A DNA stretch of 64,000 nt from the NCBI RefSeq assembly GCF_009914755.1, contig NC_060927.1; one strand, written 5' to 3'. Shown one piece after another: positions 7,479 to 49,786 of the stretch. Below the pieces are notes generated by a model, which was not told the origin of the DNA, did no database searches, and saw only the letters and a list, made by a program, of their open reading frames with translations. Both the position numbers and the translations under genes were made by a program. The number at the start of each line of letters is the position of its first letter. The first letter of the stretch is position 1. The stretch is from the human T2T-CHM13v2.0 reference genome, Homo sapiens.

Positions 7479-10400
7479 ATATTATTATTTTTGTTGGGTT
7501 TATGTTTTTATCTTTCTACTAAAGATATGAGTAGTTACATCACAATTAGTGTTATAATATTCTTTGTTTTTCTGTGTACTTACTATTACCAGTGAGTTTT
7601 GTATCTTCACATCATTTCTTCTTGCTCATTAATACCCTTTTCTTTCAGATTGAAGAATTCCTTTAGCATTTGTTGTAGGACAGGTCTGGTGTTGATGAAA
7701 TCCCTCAGCTTTTGTTTGGGAGAGTCTTTATTTCTTCTTCATGTTTGAAGGATATTTTAACCAGATATGCTTTTCTGAGTAGAAGTTTTTTTTCCTTCAG
7801 CACTTCAAATATGTCATGCCACTCTATGCTGGTCTGTGACGTTTCCACTGAAAAGACTGCTGTCAGATGTATTGGAGCTCCATTGTATGTGACTTGTTTG
7901 TTTTCTCTCACTCTTTTTAGTATCCTTTATTCTTGAACTTTGGGAGTTTGATTATTACAAGCCTTGAGGTGGTCTTCTTTGGGTTAAATCTGGTTGGTTT
8001 TCTATAAACTTCTTGTACTTGAATATCGACAGTCTTTTTCTCTAGGCTTGGGAAGTTCTTTGTTATTAGCCCTTTGAATAAACTTTCTACCTCTACCTCT
8101 CTCTCTTTACCTCCTCTTTAAGGGCAGTAACTCTTAGGTTTGCCCTTTTAAGGATATTTTCTAGATCTTGTGTTAGAAAATTTTGGTGCAGCTGAGCTGG
8201 CATCAAAACCACAAGACAAACTTCTTCCCACTCTTCCCCTCCCCTTTCCCCAGGCAGAGGAGTTTGTCCCCATTCCATTACCAACACAGGCCCACGGGGA
8301 GTACTGCTAGGCTACCTTTGATGTTCATGCCGATTTTCTAGGTGTGCTTCATTTTTTTTTTTTTTTCATTTGTCTCCTCTGACTGAAAATTTTCAAATAG
8401 CCTGTCTTCAAGCTCACTAAATCTTGCTTTTGCTTGATGAATTCTATTATGAGACTGATACATTCTTCAGTATGTCAGTTGCATTTTTCAACTACAGGAT
8501 TTCTGCTGGATGCTTTTTAATTATTTCAGTCTCTTTGATGTATCTGATAGGATTCTGAATTCCTTCTGTATTATCTTGAGTTCATTCAAAACAGCAATTT
8601 TAAATTCTTTTGTATGAATCGTTGCATAACTCTGCCTCTCCGAGATTGGTCTCTGGTGCCTTATTTAGTTCATTTGGTGAGGTCATGTTTTTCTGGATGG
8701 TCTTAGTGCTTGTGGATGCTCATTGGTTTTGGGGCATTGAAGAGTCAAGTATTTATTGTAGTCTTTGCAGTCTTTGGTTGTTTGTAACCGTCATTTATGG
8801 GAAGGCTTTCCAGGTATTTGTTGGAACTTGAGTGCTGTAATCTAAGTTTGTAGTCCCTGCAACTGTATTTCCATTAGAGGATACCCTAAGCTTAGTAATG
8901 CTGTGATTCTTGCAGACCTGTAGAGGTACCATCTTGGTGGTCTTTGTTAAGATCTGGAGGAATTCTCTGGATTACCTGGCAGAGACTCTTGTTTTCTTCC
9001 TTTACTTTATCCCAAACAAATGGAGCACATTCTCTCTGTGCTGAGCTACCCTGGAGCTGGTGGAGAGGTGACACAAGCATCCCTGTGGCCGCCACCCCTG
9101 GAAATGCACTGGCTCAGACCTAAAGCCAGCGCAGCACTGAGTCTTATCCAGGGTCCCCTGTAACCACTGACTGGCTACTGCCTGTGTTTGCTTAAGGTCC
9201 TAGAGCTTTGCCGTCAGCAGTTGGCAAAACCAACCAGGCTTCAGGGTGATGCCTTCCCTTAGGTCCTGTATGGGTCCAGAAATGCCATCCAAGAGCGAGG
9301 GCCCGGAGGTGGAAACCTTAGAAATTTACCTGGTTCTCTGTGCTACTGCACCTGAGCTGCCACCGAAACCACAAGACAAAGTCCTTCCCACTCTTCCTTC
9401 CCCTTACCCCAGGCAGAGGAGTCTCTCCCTGGTCCATTGTCACCACAGGCCCACAGGGAGTACTGCTAGGCTACCTCCAGTGCTCACCTAAGGCCAAGGG
9501 CTCTTCACTTAGCTTGTGGTGAATGCTGCCACACTTGCAATTCCCCCCGTAGGGCAGTGGTCTCCCCTCTGCCCCAGGACAGGGCCAGAAATGCTGTCCA
9601 AGAGCCAAGGCCTACAACTGGCGACCCCAAGAGCCCACTTGGTGCTTTTCTCTATTGTGGCCGGGCACAAGACAAAGTACCCTTAATCTTTCTTCTACTT
9701 TCCTCAAGCAGAAGGAGTCTCTCCCATAGCCACCACAGCTGGGAATGTTCTGGGTCATACCTAATGGTGGCACGCCTCAGAGTCTCGCTCAAGGCCCACG
9801 GCATGTACTACCTTGGCTACTGCTGCTGATCATTTAGGGCCTAAGCGCTCTTAAGTCAGCAGGTGATGAATCCTGACAGGACTGGGTGCTTCTCTTCAAG
9901 GCAGTGGGCTCACTTCTGACCCAGGATATGTCTAGAAATGTCATCCAGGGAATTAGGGCCTGGAATGGGGACCTCAGGACTCTCTCTGGTGCCCTATCCT
10001 CCTGTGACTGAGCTGGTATCCAAGTTATAAGTCAAAGTCCTCTTTACTGGTGCCTTTCCTCTCCTCAAGAAGAAGGAAAGGGCCACTTTTGTTGCTGTGA
10101 GCTGTGCTGCCTGGAGTTGGGTAAGCATGGTGCATACGCTCCTTTAGCCTCCTTGGCTGGTGTGTCACTAGGTCATGTGTCCCCCCAAATGTGCTGGCTC
10201 TGAGCCCAGCACGGCACTAGGACTTGCCTAGGAATTGTTGTCCTTGTGGCCTAGACAGCCTTTCAAGTTAATTTAGAACTGTGGGGGTAAAGCTTGTGAA
10301 AGTTCCAGGCTACTGGTATGGGCAGTTCCCCTGTGGCTAGTGCTGGTCTCAATGCCTTCTTCATGGGCATCACCTGAGTTCTGCCCAGCATTGCTTTCTG

Positions 10401-37875: not shown

Positions 37876-40146
37876 TTAAATGTTGTATACTTAGCACATA
37901 AGTGATCATTAAATGTTTGATGAATGAATTAATGAGGAAAGATTTTTTTTTTGAAAAAGAAGTTTTATGAGGAGAGAAAACATTGCATATGTAAGGCATT
38001 ATCCTCAATTCCATTGTGGACTCTCCCCCAGGTGTGCAGCCTTGAATGATGGAAATATCCTCATGAGATTCTGAAAGAGGAGGAAACGAATTTTGCCCTT
38101 AAATAGGTGTCAGTACAGCTGCACTTATTTGCACATTTCTAGTTCTGCCTCTGACTAGAGATCAATTGTGATGACTTTGAATTTGTAGACCATCTGCCTG
38201 TCAGTGCACTTAAAATTGCAACTGATCTTTATAAGCTGAGTATAACTATTATTGTAGCAAACAGCAAATTAAGTGACTATACACTGGAAAGAGTTAGGTT
38301 CATACCTCCTTGAAGACTGTGAGCTGTTCTTTATTTGGACACCTGGTATTAAACTCTTATTGGTTATTAATATTTGGGACAGGTTAATGAAGACAATATT
38401 TTACAGAATATAGCAGTTTTCAATATAATAGATTCAATACAACAACTTTTTGTGTGTTTATAATTTTGTTACTTATTATTTACCATAAGTGGTTTAAAAT
38501 ATACGTGGCAAAACATTCTTTAGAGCTTTGATTGCAATAATTATCACATAACCAACACCTCTTAAGTATTACGTACTTAAGAAGGAACTTGAACTTTATC
38601 TTAACACAATAGCATTGACAAATTACTCACAAAATTAGTAGTTGTGGAAGAAAATAGGTATAGGAAGAGTAAGTCACTGATATTGAGTAAATTAAAGTTA
38701 TAGACATTAAATTACAGACAATAAAATTATAGAAGCACTAAATAGATAAATTGATTTTTTTAATGTCATGTTAAGCATTTAAATTGCCTTTACAAAATAT
38801 TCTTCACAGTCCTTGGAGAAATTGCTGCTGTATATTTGATTAATATGTGAACAACATTTTTATTGTTAAAATATTTTCTTCATTCCTTTCAAATTTGTAT
38901 TTAAGGTTAGCAGAGCCTCAAGCAGTGCCTGAGTAGGAAAGTGATAAACTGACACCACACTGTAGAGGAGGAAGAAAAACATCTCACCAACGGCAGACAG
39001 CAGAAACTAATGGTTTTCAACTGTTGCTGATCTAATCAATCATGGTGCTATAATATAATCAGTTCTGTGTGATTCGTTTGTTGTTCTACTGGAATGCATT
39101 GTATTCCCTTCTTATTTTTAAGCCCCCCTACTTCTAGTTTTCGCCTTTCTTAAAAGGCAATTTCTAACATTGTGTTTCTTTTAAAGCCAATAAGTAATTG
39201 TGAAAGACAAACTCAGAGCCTGTTGAATTTCAACAAAAGTTAAGTATTTTGTAGGACATACAACAATAGTGTTCTTTAATTAAAATACTGAGCCATATGA
39301 AAATTTGTCCAACATTTGGTAAATGCCCTTAGTTGAATCGTTAATATCCTAGATAGTAAAAGATTAGTACCTTTTATCTCTAGTCTACTGGGTACAGATT
39401 TTGCTTTCAGATACTATCATCACATCATCACACACAGGTTGAAGATGACATTTTCTCACCTGTTAAGGCATGACTTTCAGTAAAATGTATTTAGCTGTCA
39501 GAGGTCTGCAAGCAGTCCATCAGTTGAGACATGATGCTGTTTTGACCGATATTGGTGACATTTTAAAAGCTACACAAAAATTCATAATTATAAAAGTGTT
39601 CACTGTTTCACTAAAGACTGTGTAATGCATTGCATATTAATTAATAAGATGTTCTCTTTTAAATGCTATCCCTAAAATGTACTTAATGTTACTTTCCATT
39701 ACCATGCATAAAGTTTTAACCATTTATTCATGCCATTAGAAAAATGTAGACTTTTCCTTTCTTTTCGGTATGTTCCTTTTACTTTTCTACTCATTATAGA
39801 GTCATGAACAACTATGGAAAAACACACTTTGTTGATTCCTTGTGATGTTTTTGAAAACTTCGTTCATATATGAAAACTTCTAATTCACCTTGCTTTCTGA
39901 AGGAGAAGACTAAGTTACATATGAGCCCTGTTTTGAGTAATGTATTACTATTAGTATTACAGTATGAAAGATCTATAATCAGAAGCCCCTTTCCCTTGAA
40001 GTGGAATTATTCTCTATGGCCATTAGTACTTAGGGTGATATACTATCTTCAGTGCTATCCTGTGCCTTTCCATTTTTGTCATGTTACTTCCCTCTCTTTA
40101 CATCCCTGCCCACCTCCACTTTCTGCTGTTAAGAATAGTCCATAGG

Positions 40147-41403
40147 GACTGTAAACTAGTTCAACCATTGTGGAAGACAGTGTGGCGATTTCTCAAGGAT
40201 CTAGAACTAGAAATACATTTGACCCAGCCATCCCATTACTGGGTGTATACCCAAAGGATTATAAATCATGCTGCTACAAAGACACATGCACACATATGTT
40301 TATTGTGGCACTATTCGCAGTAGCAGAGACTTGGAACCAACCCAAATGTCCATCAATAATAGACTGAATTAAGAAAATGTGGCACATATACACCACGGAA
40401 TACTATGCAGCCATAAAAAAGGATGAGTTCATGTCCTTTGCAGGGACATGGATGAAGCTGGAAACCCTCATTCTAAGCAAACTATCACAAGGAGAGAAAA
40501 CCAAACACCACATGTTCTCACTTATAAGTGGGAGTTGAACAATGAGAACACATGGACACAGGGAGGGGAATATCACACACTGGGGCCTGTTGTGGGGTGG
40601 GGGCCTGGGGGAGGGATAGCATTAGGAGAAATACCTCATGTAAATGATGAGTTGATGGGTGCGGCAAACCAACATGGCACATGTATACCTATGTAACAAA
40701 CCTGCACATTGTGCACATGTACCCTAAAACTTAAAGTATAATAATAAATAAATTACATTTCTTCCAACGTATTTATCAGCTACAAAAGCGGACCCTTTTA
40801 ATCTCCCTCTCACCAACTACTACTTCTGTGTCTCAATTTGTCATTAAATCAAGTGAGGAATGTTTATTCTTAGAGCCATCCTTAAAAAAGAAAAGAAAAG
40901 AAAAGAAAATATCTTGCACTTATCTTTGGTTGATGACCTAATATCTGGAACACTGTTTCTTATTAATAAGTTTGTGGTAGGCTATAATAAACTCCATATA
41001 AAGCCATGCCAGTTGTGCACATGTACCCTAGAACTTAAAGTATAATAAAAAAAAGAAGGGGTTCATAAGCACCCTGTAAACACTGAAGCCTATTCAAAAG
41101 GAGAGGGGTAGGACACATCTCACCATCAATCATCACAAGACGACAATGGTATGAATAACCAATGTTTACTTCATACAGGGGCTACTTAAGGAGGTCACTA
41201 TATCTCAATGTGAAAACTCCAATGAACCAGGCACTATGTTCAATTGAAATCAACCTAGAGAACCTTATCTCTCTGCATAAATGCTCCTGCTGCATGGTTT
41301 TTCATGGCCACTGGTGGAATTCTGTGATGGGGGAACAGGAAATCTGGACACAGAAGGGTGGGAATAAAATGAGCCTGTGCTGCTTTCAAAAAAAAAAAAA
41401 AAA
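40147..41403 (+). mobile_element. 5'-truncated L1PA (about L1PA6) carrying a 3' transduction of about 640 bp
   Basis: L1 3' end 40147-40751; non-L1 sequence to 41387; AATAAA 41363-41368; poly(A) from 41388; whole unit bounded by the 16-bp TSD aagaatagtccatagg (40131-40146 / 41404-41419) at a TT/AAGA endonuclease-type site. Confidence 0.92.
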
Positions 41404-42275
41404 AAGAATAGTCCATAGGCTAAAGCTTATTGCTAGGGTTACCACCTAGAACAGGGAAGCTTAATTGTGAATTAGAAAGTAGATTTTTTTCTTTTTCAAA
41501 GTTCAAAGATAAGACAATAGCCAGACATTCAAGTGGTTAAAGGATTTTCTGAGAACTTCCAAAGCTGGGTTTTTACCTAACAAAAAGCATATTTGGAGGA
41601 TTATTTTATGTCATAATCATAGTAAGAAGAGTAATTCTAGACACCAAGGACTGGTCAGTCCATCCCATTTAGGTATGGGGGACTGAGGTACATAGATTCA
41701 GAGTGGGTGAGGCTAGGGTAAGAATGATACCTGGGCCCTGAGGAGGGAATAAGTTCCCTTTATCTTAGAGATGAAACAAAATAGAACTTTCACAAAGGCC
41801 AAAGAGTAATCCCTAAAACTGCAGGCTGTTGCTAGGGTTTCTCTGGGTATAGCCTGCAAAACCCACAGACCTTTTGGAAAGTCTTGTTTGGAGCAAAGTG
41901 CCATCTCTGTCATAGCACAGTAGTAATGAATAAAGGATGAAGGACAAAGCCAAAGGGCAGTTTTTATAGGGTTCTGCACACTCCAGGGTAATGCAGAGAA
42001 AGCAACCAAGAGTTTTGACTATCCCCTGACCACCCCCCCACCACCTCCCCGCAGGAGTTGATAGTACTGAGTGGGCTGCAAGACTGAAATTGGCTTGGTT
42101 TCAAGAGGGAGGAGGAGGCAGCTCTATGCAGATTTCTTGTGAACAGAGAGATTGGACATCTCTCTGCAACTACTGGCACAGCTTGCCTGCTGACCAAGTG
42201 GATGAAGTCAAAGCAAAACCTGATGCTGAGAAGTGAAGCTCATGAAAAGCCATCCTGGAAGGACAGTAAAAGAAG

Positions 42276-42737: not shown

Positions 42738-43320
42738 TGCCCAGGCTTGCTTAGGTAAACAAAGCAGCCAGGAAGCTCAAACTGGGTGGAGCCCACCACA
42801 GCCCAAGGAGGCCTGCCTGCCTCTGTAGGCTCCACCCCTGGGGGCAGGGCACAGATAAACAAAAAGACAGCAGTAACCTCTGCAGACTTAAATGTCCCTG
42901 TCTGACAGCTTTGAAGAGAGCAGTGGTTCTCCCAGCAGGCAGCTGGAGATCTGAGAACGGGCAGACTGCCTCCTCAAGTGGGTCCCTGACCCCTGACCCC
43001 CGAGCAGCCTAACTGGGAGGCAACCCCCAGTAGGGGCAGACTGACACCTCACACGGCCAGGTACTCCTCTGAGACAAAACTTCCAAAGGAACGATCAGAC
43101 AGCAGCATTTGCCGTTCACAAAAATCCGCTGTTCTGCAGCCACCACTGCTGATACCCAGGCAAACAGGGTCTGGAGTGGACCTCTAGCAAACTCCAACAG
43201 ACCTGCAGCTGAGGGTCCTGTCTGTTAGAAGGAAAACTAACAAACAGAAGGGACATCCACACCAAAAACCCATCTGTACATCACCATCATCAAAGACCAA
43301 AAGTAGATAAAACCACAAAG
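42285..43320. promoter_or_regulatory. L1 5' UTR internal sense and antisense promoter
   Basis: CpG-containing L1PA 5' UTR; YY1-type site present as the variant AAAATGGCCG (42297-42306). Confidence 0.8.
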
Positions 43321-44337
43321 ATGGGGAGAAAACAGAGCAGAAAAACTGGAAACCCTAAAAAGCAGAGCACCTCTCCTCCTCCAAAGGAACGCAGTTCCTC
43401 ACCAGCAATGGAACGAAGCTGGACGGAGAATGACTTTGATGAGTTGAGAGAAGAAGGCTTCAGACAATCAAACTACTCCGAGCTACAGGAGGAAATTCAA
43501 ACCAAAGGCAAAGAAGTAAAAAACTTTGAAAAAAATTTAGACGAATGTATAACTAGAATAACCAATACAGAGAAGTGCTTAAAGGAGCTGATGGAGCTGA
43601 AAGCCAAGGCTCGGGAACTACGTGAAGAATACAGAAGCCTCAGGAGCCGATGTGATCAACTGGAAGAAAGGGTATCAGTGATGGAAGATGAAATGAATGA
43701 AATGAAGCAAGAAGGGAAGTTTAGAGAAAAAAGAATAAAAAGATATGAACAAAGCCTCCAAGAAATATGGGACTATGTGAAAAGACCAAATCTACGTCTG
43801 ATTGGTGTACCTGAAAGTGACGGGGAGAAAGGAACCAAGTGGGAAAACACTCTACAGGATATTGTCCAGGAGAACTTCCCCAATCTAGCAAGGCAGACCA
43901 ACATTCAGATTCAGGAAATACAGAGAACGCCTCAAAGATACTCCTCGAGAAGAGCAACTCCAAGACACATAATTGTCAGATTCACCAAAGTTGAAATGAA
44001 GGAAAAAATGTTAAGGGCAGCCAGAGAGAAAGGTCGGGTTACCCACAAAGGGAAGCCCATCAGACTAACAGCAGATCTCTCGGCAGAAACTCTACAAGCC
44101 AGAAGAGAGTGGGGACAAATATTCAACATTCCTAAAGAAATGAATTTTCAGCCCATAATTTCATATCCAGCCAAACTAAGCTTCATAAGTGAAGGAGAAA
44201 TAAAATACTTTACAGAGAAGCAAATGCTGAGAGATTTTGTCACCACCAGGCCTGCCCTAAAAGAGCTCCTGAAGGAAGCACTAAACATGGAAAGGAACAA
44301 CCGGTACCAGCCACTGCAAAATCATGCCAAATTGTAA
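43321..44337 (+). CDS. LINE-1 ORF1p (RNA-binding chaperone), intact 338 aa
   Basis: Canonical length; coiled coil, RPNLRLIGVPE, REKG, ARR and YPAKLS motifs all present. Confidence 0.93.
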   Translation: MGRKQSRKTGNPKKQSTSPPPKERSSSPAMERSWTENDFDELREEGFRQSNYSELQEEIQTKGKEVKNFEKNLDECITRITNTEKCLKELMELKAKARELREEYRSLRSRCDQLEERVSVMEDEMNEMKQEGKFREKRIKRYEQSLQEIWDYVKRPNLRLIGVPESDGEKGTKWENTLQDIVQENFPNLARQTNIQIQEIQRTPQRYSSRRATPRHIIVRFTKVEMKEKMLRAAREKGRVTHKGKPIRLTADLSAETLQARREWGQIFNIPKEMNFQPIISYPAKLSFISEGEIKYFTEKQMLRDFVTTRPALKELLKEALNMERNNRYQPLQNHAKL

Positions 44338-44400
44338 AAACCATCAAGGCTAGGAAGAAACTCCATCAACTAACAAGCAAAATAACCAGCTAACATCATA

Positions 44401-48216
<3,816 letters not shown>

Positions 48217-49786
48217 ACAGTGAGAACACATGGACACAGGAAGGGGAACATCACACTCTGGGGACTGGTGGGGGGTTGGGGGAGGGGGGAGGGATAGCAT
48301 TAGGAGATATACCTAATGCTACATGACGAGTTAATGGGTGCAGCACACCAGCATGGCAAATGTATACATACGTAACCTGTACATTGTGCACATGTACCCT
48401 AAAACTTAAAGTATAATAATAATGAAAGACAAAAAAGAAGTCATGCTTCCTCTTATATCCAAATGCCAACTTGGTAAGAAGGGAGGAGATAACTGTAGGG
48501 AGGGGTAGAAATTTTTATGGATTAAACAGCCAAAGCAAAGTGTTTTAAATCAGAAGATACTGAGATGCCTTTTTAAATGACAAGGTTGATTTTTTTCCTG
48601 TGATGATTTGAAATAGCGACTTGTAACTAGAAACAAGTTTAGAAAATACAGTTACTTTTTTTTGTTTGTTTGTTTCATGCCCTGGATTGTGGCTGACCAG
48701 TTTATACCTACTGTGCTGGAAAAGTTTAAATTATAAATTACTGTCACAGTCTCCGTAGATACTAAAATCTCTGATCTATAAAACCTGTATTGCATGAGCA
48801 ATACTGTCATTCCTCCTTTTTCTATAACAGTTATTAAAGGAGAAGAACTATGCTACGATTCATGTGTATTTACTGAGCATATAAAGCAGTCTATGCAGTT
48901 CGTACATACCTCTCTCTAAATGCATTGAGGAAAATTATATCTCTTACGTAAATCATCTAAGACTTTCTGAATTTTGTTAGATCCTGCCATTTCTTATTTT
49001 ACACAGGAGGCTGCCAGCTCTCAACTGATTGAATTGATTACTTCATTAAAGCTAGAAATACAGATCTGATGAGTTTTGCAATTAATTGTATAGAAAGCTG
49101 GGCTTGGAAAAAGAAGAGGATGCACTGAGTAGCAGAGTAGACCTGATGCTCAGTTAAACCTAAACTGCTACTGGTACAGCAAGTCAGACAAGCAGTCTGG
49201 ACCTTACTCAGGGTCAGGAGAAAGCGGCAAATCAGAACCCAGGAAGAGAGTCAGGGAACATTATGGTATATACCCATTGAATTTAGATGATCAAGAGTTT
49301 AAGCCAGACAGTAACCTACAGGGCTACAGGGCAATAAAGAGTCACACGTAACAAATCTTTGTTGTGAAATAGACAAATATTTCATGCTATTTCAGAAACT
49401 ATTCCCAGAGTTGAGCAGAGTAAATCTGCAGTTAGGCAGTGTTAGGTAAGTGAAAGAATCATGTGAGGTTAGGACTAAGGCTTCATCCTGATGTCAGCCT
49501 GTGGTGGTACATTCTGACACTAACTGCAGACAAATTTCTCACCTTCATATGTTTCCTGAAAACTTATCCCGAATTTATTTTTGTTAATTATCTCATCTCC
49601 TCTTATACCCAAGTGCATTCCTTGACTCAACTTCTCATCTTTCTTTTATGTATCCCAAAAAAGTTTGCTCCTCATCAGTGTCCTTTACACTGTAAAATTT
49701 TTGCCTGAGAGTATTCTCTTTTAGAAAATCTTCTCATATCAATTCCAAGTAGTTTTAGGTGGAAGCACAGAAACACTAAATCTCTG

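What the first reader, a model, noticed from the sequence alone, without database searches (positions are those of the whole stretch)
40131..41419. L1-mediated 3' transduction: about 640 bp of foreign DNA inside one TSD pair
Seen: the 16-mer aagaatagtccatagg lies directly before the truncated L1 (40131-40146) and again only after a second poly(A) (41404-41419), not after the L1's own short tail near 40751. AATAAA (41363-41368) lies 19 nt before that poly(A). Known: this is the signature of L1 read-through, where downstream genomic flank is retrotransposed with the element. Inference: 40752-41387 is a copy of another locus and tags the source L1. A repeat annotation alone would treat it as native intron.
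Basis: partly seen in the sequence, partly recalled or inferred. Interest (0 to 1): 0.8.

Follow-up and report, generated by a model that had tools for sequence, protein, structure and literature searches.

The report
Composite L1 insertion from several donor loci
One old L1 retrotransposon insertion in a UBE2E2 intron carries DNA copied from two other loci (one 290 kb away on chr3, one on chr9) with a second L1 tail between them; it is a more tangled case of a well-known process.

Summary
AAGAATAGTCCATAGG occurs only at 40131-40146 and 41404-41419. The pair encloses a 5'-truncated L1, 636 further bases and a terminal A16-18, with AATAAA 19 nt before it.

- **40753-41014** copies the 3' flank of an extant L1, here called S1, at chr3:23.061-23.067 Mb, 290 kb away. 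The copy includes S1's own poly(A) and 3' target-site duplication.
- **S1 itself** carries an older 131-bp transduction whose only unretroposed copy found lies on chr4.
- **41015-41054** is a second L1 3' end plus A8, from a different L1.
- **41055-41387** copies chr9:110,955,121-454. No L1 lies there in this assembly.

S1's flank joins the second L1 end at a GTT microhomology, and the donor has no poly(A) there. The best reading is one target-primed insertion of a chr9 L1 read-through RNA that jumped to an S1-locus template. A two-generation route through chr9 is not excluded. It is a new instance of known processes and of modest interest.

The parts
40131..40146 (+). 5' copy of the target-site duplication AAGAATAGTCCATAGG. 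It is preceded by tt, so the bottom-strand nick site reads TCTT/AA.
40147..40752 (+). 5'-truncated L1, the last ~606 bp including the short tail aataataaataaa, copied from the L1 'S1' at chr3:23.06 Mb. The last 3 A are also shared with the next part. GG at 40145-40146 is shared with the donor, giving a 2-nt microhomology at the 5' junction.
   Evidence: 36 substitutions in 596 aligned sites; 8 derived states shared with S1, against at most 3 for any of 28 other L1 copies.
40753..40883 (+). TD0, a 131-bp piece that S1 already carried as an older 3' transduction. It is related to chr4:80,792,894-80,793,028 (87%). ATTAAA lies at 40843-40848.
40884..40906 (+). A-rich tract (aaaaaagaaaagaaaag...) corresponding to S1's own A13 poly(A) tail.
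40907..40921 (+). Copy of S1's 3' target-site duplication AAATATCTTGCACTT. This is the only copy in the window.
40922..41014 (+). Native chr3:23.06 Mb flank of S1. It ends at ...catgccaGTT, whereas the donor continues cttaccttg... with no poly(A). GTT at 41012-41014 is shared with the next part.
   Evidence: 3 substitutions in 101 sites over 40911-41011.
41015..41054 (+). Second L1 3' terminus (about 32 nt) plus A8 at 41047-41054. It reads tagaac and ataataaaaaaaa where S1 and 40709-40752 read taaaac and ataataataaataaa, so it comes from a different L1. The last 2 A are also shared with the chr9 piece.
41055..41387 (+). Copy of chr9:110,955,121-110,955,454 with 11 substitutions and 2 one-base gaps. 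AATAAA lies at 41363-41368.
41388..41403 (+). Terminal poly(A), 16 A plus 2 A shared with the duplication.
41404..41419 (+). 3' copy of the target-site duplication.

Best explanation
This is a single L1 endonuclease and target-primed reverse transcription event at tt|aagaat. The proposed steps, with their status, are:

1. **Priming (inferred).** Reverse transcription started on the poly(A) of a read-through transcript from an L1 that once sat at chr9:110,955,120. That L1 is absent from this assembly.
2. **First template (shown as sequence, inferred as order).** The enzyme copied 333 nt of chr9 flank, the A8 tail and about 32 nt of that L1's 3' end.
3. **Template jump (inferred).** At a 2-3 nt microhomology (GTT), the growing cDNA moved to a second template from the S1 locus at chr3:23.06 Mb, 290 kb from the integration site. 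Whether that template was RNA or nearby DNA cannot be told.
4. **Second template (shown).** It copied 93 nt of S1's native flank, S1's target-site duplication, S1's poly(A), S1's older 131-bp transduction and the last 606 nt of S1's L1.
5. **Joining (shown as sequence).** The product was joined to the target at a GG microhomology, which duplicated 16 bp.

S1 is itself a 5'-truncated offspring of a lost L1. That parent read through into chr4-like sequence.

Shown: the anatomy, both donor loci, the direction of copying, and the two nested duplication pairs. Inferred: the order of synthesis, the jump happening in this event rather than one generation earlier, and the nature of the second template.
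For: **One insertion event**
- The 16-bp duplication encloses everything.
- There is a terminal A16-18, a T-rich/AA nick site and 5' truncation.

**The S1 locus is a donor**
- An 870-bp colinear match at 92.6% covers the L1, the identical odd tail and the flank. The flank continues at the donor with no poly(A).
- The L1 part shares 8 derived states with S1, against at most 3 with any of 28 other close L1 copies. Its distance to S1 is 6.1%, against a mean of 7.4% and minimum of 6.4% to the others.
- S1 has its own duplication pair, AAATATCTT[G/C]CACTT, at L011 325-339 and 6481-6495. These are the only 2 matches in 10 kb at up to 2 mismatches; 1 of 200 shuffles reached 2.
- The window holds a single copy of that 15-mer, inside the insert. 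This fixes the direction as S1 to window.

**The chr9 locus is a donor**
- 334 bp match at 96%, and this is the only other copy in the genome.
- The chr9 copy is colinear with its own flanks and has no A tail. A T14 run follows the copied end directly. Such a run could serve as a U-rich downstream element for cleavage and polyadenylation; that role is inferred from recalled knowledge.

**A jump rather than read-through**
- The S1 flank ends at an internal site (ccagtt|cttacc in the donor).
- It abuts the 3' end of a different L1: tagaac against taaaac, and a different tail.
- GTT is shared across the junction.

**The jump happened at this site**
- The second donor lies 290,062 bp from the integration site. 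Under uniform placement the probability is 1.9e-4.
- Most traced transductions are interchromosomal (PMC9311842, passages).
- S1 lacks about 500-545 nt of its 5' end compared with 9 other copies. It is therefore a poor autonomous source.

**Experimental precedent** (PMC11702581, passages)
- Same-orientation composite L1 inserts are ascribed to template switching or RNA ligation, with junction microhomology.
Against: - No L1 lies at the chr9 site in this assembly, so a lost allele must be assumed.
- The chr9 hexamer reads ACTAAA, not AATAAA. The signal may not have existed in the donor.
- Microhomology of 2-3 nt is weak evidence. Its length also depends on the unknown sequence of the lost L1.
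- If everything was copied at one time, divergence should be even. It is not quite even:
  - S1-derived parts 50/832 against the chr9 part 11/332, p=0.08.
  - L1 plus TD0 47/731 against native flank plus chr9 part 14/433, p=0.02.
  - This leans towards an older S1-derived copy, which would favour a two-step route.
- The proximity argument is post hoc.
- Nothing here shows that the S1 locus is transcribed on the needed strand.
- No outgroup genome could be examined.
Confidence: 0.55

Rival explanations
1. Two-generation (serial) route. The chimera L1(S1)-TD0-A(n)-S1 flank-second L1 end-A8 formed when an S1-locus template was captured during an earlier insertion at chr9:110,955,120. That chr9 element was later transcribed and read through 333 nt to the chr9 poly(A) site. 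It then inserted here as a classical, 5'-truncated 3' transduction. The chr9 element never became fixed.
For: - The structure L1 end-A8-chr9 flank-AATAAA-A(n) is a textbook 3' transduction.
- The chr9 junction at|aagaag is an acceptable endonuclease site.
- S1-derived parts are somewhat more diverged from their donor (6.0%) than the chr9 part is from its donor (3.3%), p=0.08.
Against: - The 290-kb closeness of S1 to the final site would be pure chance, at 1.9e-4.
- The chr9 intermediate could be no longer than S1, which lacks about 0.5 kb of its 5' end. An outside promoter would therefore be needed twice.
- A template jump is still needed.
- No chr9 element and no siblings exist in this assembly.
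Confidence: 0.25
2. Pure serial read-through with no template jump. In the ancestral S1 haplotype, a tiny 5'-truncated L1 (about 32 nt plus A tail) sat 260 bp downstream of S1 in the same orientation. S1's read-through transcript ended at that fragment's own poly(A) signal. The product landed on chr9, read through again and landed here.
For: - The second L1 end contains the L1's own AATAAA within agtataataaa, and A8 follows it.
- Very short L1 insertions exist (recalled knowledge).
Against: - The present S1 locus reads ccagtt|cttacc, with no trace of such a fragment or of a duplication.
- That site, TAAG/AA on the bottom strand, is a poor endonuclease target.
- Two lost alleles are needed, together with the chance proximity.
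Confidence: 0.07
3. A chimeric RNA made before reverse transcription. RNA ligation or aberrant processing joined a fragment of an S1-locus transcript to a fragment of the chr9 L1 read-through transcript. One continuous reverse transcription then copied it.
For: - RNA ligation is a documented route to L1 chimeras (Law & Burns, bioRxiv 10.1101/2025.02.02.635956, passages; PMC11702581, passages).
- The outcome would be identical in sequence.
Against: - The shared GTT at the junction fits annealing better than blunt ligation, though only weakly.
- No splice-site dinucleotides lie at either side of the junction.
- Ligation gives no reason for the donor's proximity.
Confidence: 0.08
4. One source L1 read through about 640 bp of its own downstream flank, so that 40752-41387 is a copy of one locus.
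For: The outer anatomy fits: the L1 tail, then non-L1 DNA, then AATAAA, poly(A) and the duplication.
Against: - The stretch maps to two chromosomes, with a second L1 end between the parts.
- The donor flank on chr3 continues into unrelated sequence after 263 bp.
Confidence: 0.01

Closest known systems
Classical L1 3' transduction (read-through of the weak L1 poly(A) signal)
   Same: - The L1's own tail is followed by non-L1 DNA, a downstream AATAAA and a second poly(A), all inside one duplication pair.
- The flank identifies an extant donor L1.
- This is a common process. Of 5,311 polymorphic L1 insertions, 466 (8.8%) carry a transduction (PMC12350158, passages).
   Different: - The carried DNA comes from two loci, with an L1 3' end between them.
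- The first flank ends at an internal donor site with no poly(A) signal or tail.
- The second flank's donor has no L1 in this assembly.
Chimeric L1 insertions made by template switching or RNA ligation (U6/L1, mRNA/L1 and Alu/L1 chimeras; experimental composite inserts)
   Same: - Two templates lie in the same orientation inside one duplication pair.
- There is junction microhomology, and the 3' part is an L1 end with poly(A).
- Sources: Law & Burns 2025, passages; PMC11702581, passages.
   Different: - The 5' partner here is not a small RNA or spliced mRNA. It is an unspliced copy of another L1 with its flank.
- The 3' partner is itself a transduction-bearing transcript.
Templated insertions from genomic DNA near L1 integration sites
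   Same: - The second donor lies on the same chromosome arm, 290 kb away.
- PMC11702581 reports 3 experimental insertions with extra sequence templated from nearby genomic DNA, and cites ORF2p extension on DNA templates (passages).
   Different: - I did not see the distances in that paper, because the figures are not held.
- The template here may equally have been RNA.
- This is a fixed germline event, not one from cell culture.
Multi-generation (serial) transductions used to trace L1 lineages
   Same: Nested poly(A)/duplication layers record successive hosts: chr4-like locus, then chr3:23.06 Mb, then here. That such serial cases are in print is recalled; the phrases 'serial transduction' and 'nested transduction' had 0 occurrences in each of the 12 papers listed.
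   Different: The last step is not a simple read-through from the previous host.

Membership tests
L1 target-primed (endonuclease-dependent) insertion | Target-site duplication flanking the whole insert | tested here: met
   A 16/16 repeat at 40131-40146 and 41404-41419, the only two copies in 64 kb. None of 100 shuffles gave 2 matches.
L1 target-primed (endonuclease-dependent) insertion | 3' poly(A) directly before the downstream duplication copy | tested here: met
   A16-18 at 41388-41405.
L1 target-primed (endonuclease-dependent) insertion | T-rich/AA nick site at the start of the duplication | tested here: met
   tt|aagaat, which reads TCTT/AA on the bottom strand. The consensus TTTT/AA is recalled.
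Classical single-locus L1 3' transduction | The transduced DNA is colinear with the 3' flank of a donor L1 | tested here: met
   True for 40753-41014 against chr3:23.06 Mb, where L1, tail and flank are all colinear.
Classical single-locus L1 3' transduction | All DNA between the L1 tail and the final poly(A) comes from that one flank | tested here: not met
   41015-41054 is a second L1 end. 41055-41387 maps to chr9.
Classical single-locus L1 3' transduction | The transduced piece ends at a poly(A) signal of the donor locus | tested here: inconclusive
   - The S1 flank piece ends at no signal.
- The chr9 piece ends 19 nt after AATAAA in the window, but chr9 reads ACTAAA there.
Classical single-locus L1 3' transduction | A donor L1 is present upstream of the chr9 piece | tested here: not met
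   In this assembly chr9 reads gatcacat|aagaagggg, with unique sequence and an Alu upstream. A lost allele cannot be excluded.
Template-switch (or ligation) chimeric retrocopy | Two different templates in the same orientation inside one duplication pair | tested here: met
   Both parts lie in L1-sense orientation. The two L1 3' ends differ: taaaac against tagaac, and the tails differ.
Template-switch (or ligation) chimeric retrocopy | The junction lies at an internal acceptor site and shows microhomology | tested here: met
   The donor reads ccaGTT|cttacc and the window reads ccaGTTgtgcac. S1's own L1 reads cacGTTgtgcac at the same place. The overlap is 2-3 nt, depending on the lost L1.
Template-switch (or ligation) chimeric retrocopy | The second template was RNA | not testable with these tools
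   The copied stretch is unspliced and colinear with the genome, so RNA and DNA templates give the same product.

The most novel reading that the evidence does not exclude
The reverse transcriptase (or a repair polymerase) working at this chr3:23.35 Mb break picked its second template because that template was physically close. It could have been a nascent transcript or the DNA of a locus 290 kb away in the same chromatin neighbourhood. If so, this fixed germline insertion would be a natural record that L1 template jumps sample the local nuclear environment. Old chimeric insertions could then be mined as fossils of ancient three-dimensional contacts or local transcription.
Probability: 0.3. 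Interest if true: 0.5.

Novelty: new member of a known kind. Interest (0 to 1): 0.3.

Why it matters
Taken alone this is a neutral intronic insertion, and I found no evidence of function.

Its value is as a clean worked example. One 1.26-kb insert keeps nested poly(A) and duplication layers. These layers name four loci: chr4-like, chr3:23.06 Mb, chr9:110.955 Mb and the present site. At least two of the source L1s are no longer present.

It also shows that a naive '3' transduction' call can merge a true source-tagging flank with an unrelated second donor. Pipelines that map the whole inter-poly(A) stretch as one unit would mis-assign or discard such cases.

The 290-kb donor distance is a small data point for the idea that template jumps favour nearby templates.

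Tried and rejected
- **Siblings.** Whole-genome searches with the S1 native flank (107 nt) and with the chr9 piece (335 nt) each found only the window and the donor. No sibling insertions exist in this assembly.
- **Parent of S1.** The 135-nt piece found 5 places: the window, S1, chr4, chr5 and a 46-nt partial match on chr4. None has an L1 upstream.
- **Was S1 inserted into a pre-existing copy of the chr4-like sequence?** Rejected.
  - Only L011 353-490 matches that sequence within 20 kb.
  - S1's duplication lies beyond the piece and its A13.
- **Splicing at the S1-flank/second-L1 junction.** Rejected, because GT/AG dinucleotides are not in the right places.
- **Nested independent insertions.** Rejected, because the only duplication pair encloses both parts.
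- **Divergence as a clock to separate one-step from two-step routes.** Inconclusive, with p=0.08 or 0.02 depending on the grouping.
- **Polarising the 11 TD0 differences against chr4 and chr5.** Read by eye from the alignment: 6 arose on the window lineage, 2 on the S1 lineage and 3 are ambiguous. This is not informative.
- **Naming the chr9 gene.** The neighbouring minus-strand exon matches ankyrin repeats only generically. The name ANKS6 is recalled, not verified.
- **L1 subfamily.** Not assigned, because no repeat library is held here.
- **Literature.** The phrases 'serial transduction' and 'nested transduction' had 0 occurrences in each of the 12 papers listed. PMC13009371 held none of my six search terms.
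Full report
**1. Observation**

The 16-mer AAGAATAGTCCATAGG occurs at 40131-40146 and 41404-41419 and nowhere else in the window, even with 2 mismatches allowed. None of 100 shuffles gave two matches. L1 sequence begins at 40147. Its odd short tail (aataataaataaa) ends at about 40752. AATAAA is at 41363-41368, and an 18-A run starts 19 nt later and runs into the second 16-mer. The site reads tt|aagaat, which is TCTT/AA on the bottom strand and close to the L1 endonuclease preference (that consensus is recalled).

**2.

A repeat scan shows a second copy of the L1 3' terminus at 41013-41052. It is 95% identical to 40709-40748 and is followed by eight A. The 636 'foreign' bases are therefore not one block.

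**3. Donor loci**

I searched the window's own assembly with 40752-41387.
- Bases 1-263 of the query match chr3:23,061,232-487 on the minus strand at 91%, with an L1 3' end directly beside the match.
- Bases 302-635 match chr9:110,955,121-454 at 96%.
- The stretch between them matches L1 3' ends all over the genome.

Separate searches gave the following counts.
- The 107-nt chr3 flank piece has only 2 places in the genome, the window and chr3:23.06 Mb.
- The 335-nt chr9 piece has only 2 places, the window and chr9.
- No sibling insertions exist in this assembly.

**4. The chr3:23.06 Mb locus (S1)**

Window 40145-41014 aligns colinearly with S1 over 870 bp at 92.6%. The alignment runs through the L1, the identical tail and 263 bp of flank. 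At S1 the L1 continues further 5', and the flank continues after ...catgccagtt as cttaccttgaag..., with no poly(A).

The L1 part is specifically related to S1.
- Against 28 other closely matching L1 copies, the window and S1 share 8 derived states. The next best copy shares 3.
- The window-S1 substitution distance (6.1%) is below the window's distance to every other copy (minimum 6.4%, mean 7.4%).
- The 28 comparators were the best matches to the window. This biases against finding window-private changes.

S1 is a retrotransposed copy with a transduction of its own.
- After its tail come 131 bp (TD0), then A13, then AAATATCTTGCACTT.
- The same 15-mer with one mismatch lies at L011 6481-6495. 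That is exactly where S1's similarity to other L1 copies stops.
- Nine other L1 copies stay similar to each other for a further 480-545 nt upstream of that point, while S1 does not. S1 therefore lacks about 0.5 kb of its 5' end.

The window holds one copy of S1's 15-mer, at 40907-40921, inside the insert. S1's poly(A), its 3' duplication and 93 bp of truly native chr3:23.06 Mb DNA were all carried here. This fixes the direction of copying as S1 to window.

**5. TD0**

The 131-bp piece has two other full-length matches, on chr4 (87%) and chr5 (86%), plus a 46-nt partial match on chr4. In both full copies the sequence runs uninterrupted across the point where S1 has its L1 tail, and past the point where S1 has A13.

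The chr5 copy is a 592-bp block, 98.3% identical to chr4. It is bounded by T9 on one side and by T13 plus a reverse-oriented SVA-like body on the other. It looks like a young SVA-borne copy of chr4.

That leaves chr4:80.79 Mb as the only unretroposed copy found. It is the candidate site of S1's lost parent L1 (inference).

**6. The chr9 locus**

The match has 11 substitutions and 2 one-base gaps in 334 columns.
- It starts at gatcacat|aagaagggg, with unique DNA and an Alu upstream and no L1.
- It ends at ...gccgcttt, directly before a T14 run.
- About 130 bp further on is a minus-strand exon encoding ankyrin repeats. The gene name ANKS6 is only recalled.
- In the window the hexamer is AATAAA, but chr9 reads ACTAAA.

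The layout 'L1 3' end - A8 - chr9 flank - hexamer - 19 nt - poly(A)' is the signature of read-through from an L1 that once sat at that chr9 site and is absent from this assembly. The T14 run would serve as a U-rich downstream element (inference from recalled knowledge).

**7. The internal junction**

S1's flank stops at ccaGTT, and the second L1 end begins (GTT)gtgcacatg. S1's own L1 reads cacGTTgtgcac at the homologous place. The second L1 end differs from S1's end (tagaac against taaaac, plain A tail against aataaataaa).

So two different L1-bearing templates were joined at a 2-3 nt overlap, at a donor position with no poly(A) signal. Read-through cannot do this. A template jump during reverse transcription can, and so, less well, can prior RNA ligation.

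Both routes are documented.
- Law & Burns (bioRxiv 10.1101/2025.02.02.635956; abstract and passages).
- PMC11702581 (passages), which reports:
  - same-orientation composite inserts with junction microhomology;
  - ORF2p extension on DNA templates, cited from other work.

**8. One event or two generations?**

Either the jump happened here, or it happened when an S1-derived element landed on chr9 and this site then received a classical transduction from chr9. In the first case the primary template was the chr9 read-through RNA and the second template came from the S1 locus.

For the first:
- S1 lies only 290,062 bp from the integration site, which has probability 1.9e-4 under uniform placement.
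- Traced transductions are mostly interchromosomal (PMC9311842, passages).
- S1 lacks its 5' 0.5 kb.

For the second:
- S1-derived parts are more diverged from their donor than the chr9 part is from its donor: 50/832 against 11/332, p=0.08.
- Grouped as L1 plus TD0 against native flank plus chr9 part, the counts are 47/731 against 14/433, p=0.02.

I put the odds at 0.55 and 0.25.

**9. Age**

Pooled donor-copy divergence is 61/1,164, or 5.2%. Against recalled species divergences, this suggests insertion between the orangutan and macaque splits. The L1 subfamily was not assigned, and no outgroup genome could be examined.

**10. Verdict**

This is a composite, multi-donor L1 insertion that preserves a short pedigree: chr4-like locus, then chr3:23.06 Mb, then here, with a chr9 read-through transcript as the priming template. 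Every mechanism invoked is already described, so this is a new member of a known kind. It has modest interest as a clean example and as one data point on donor proximity.

Noticed in passing
L005 1077-1668 (chr5:63.902 Mb) and L004 1468-2059 (chr4:80.793 Mb): A 592-bp block is 98.3% identical between chr4 and chr5. On chr5 it is bounded by T9 on one side and by T13 plus a reverse-oriented SVA-like body on the other. This looks like a young SVA 3' transduction of chr4 sequence. chr4 shows no SVA at the matching edge.
   Followed up: partly
L011 7443-7890 (chr3:23.068 Mb): An L1 3' fragment whose 5' piece is inverted lies between two copies of agaaatgctacttca. The orientation switch is at 7795/7796. 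This is a twin-priming type insertion, about 1 kb upstream of S1.
   Followed up: no
L011 4452-4811 (inside S1, chr3:23.065 Mb): The S1 body is interrupted by a piece of about 360 bp that matches an L1 3' end in the opposite orientation. It is either a later nested insertion or an internal rearrangement.
   Followed up: no
L002 1835-1848 and downstream (chr9:110,955,455 onward): A T14 run follows the copied chr9 segment directly. About 130 bp further on is a minus-strand exon encoding ankyrin repeats. The copied segment is therefore intronic and antisense to that gene. The gene name is not verified.
   Followed up: partly
window 40147-41387 against its donors: Substitutions are unevenly spread. 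There are 30 of 36 L1 differences before 40531, 11 in the 135 bases of TD0, 3 in 101 bases of native flank, and none in the first 125 nt of the chr9 piece. This is unexplained. Possible causes are chance, gene conversion among L1 copies, or an older origin of the S1-derived part.
   Followed up: partly
window 43118-48441: A 5.3-kb L1 on the plus strand, 85-89% similar to S1's body. It is unrelated to the finding.
   Followed up: no
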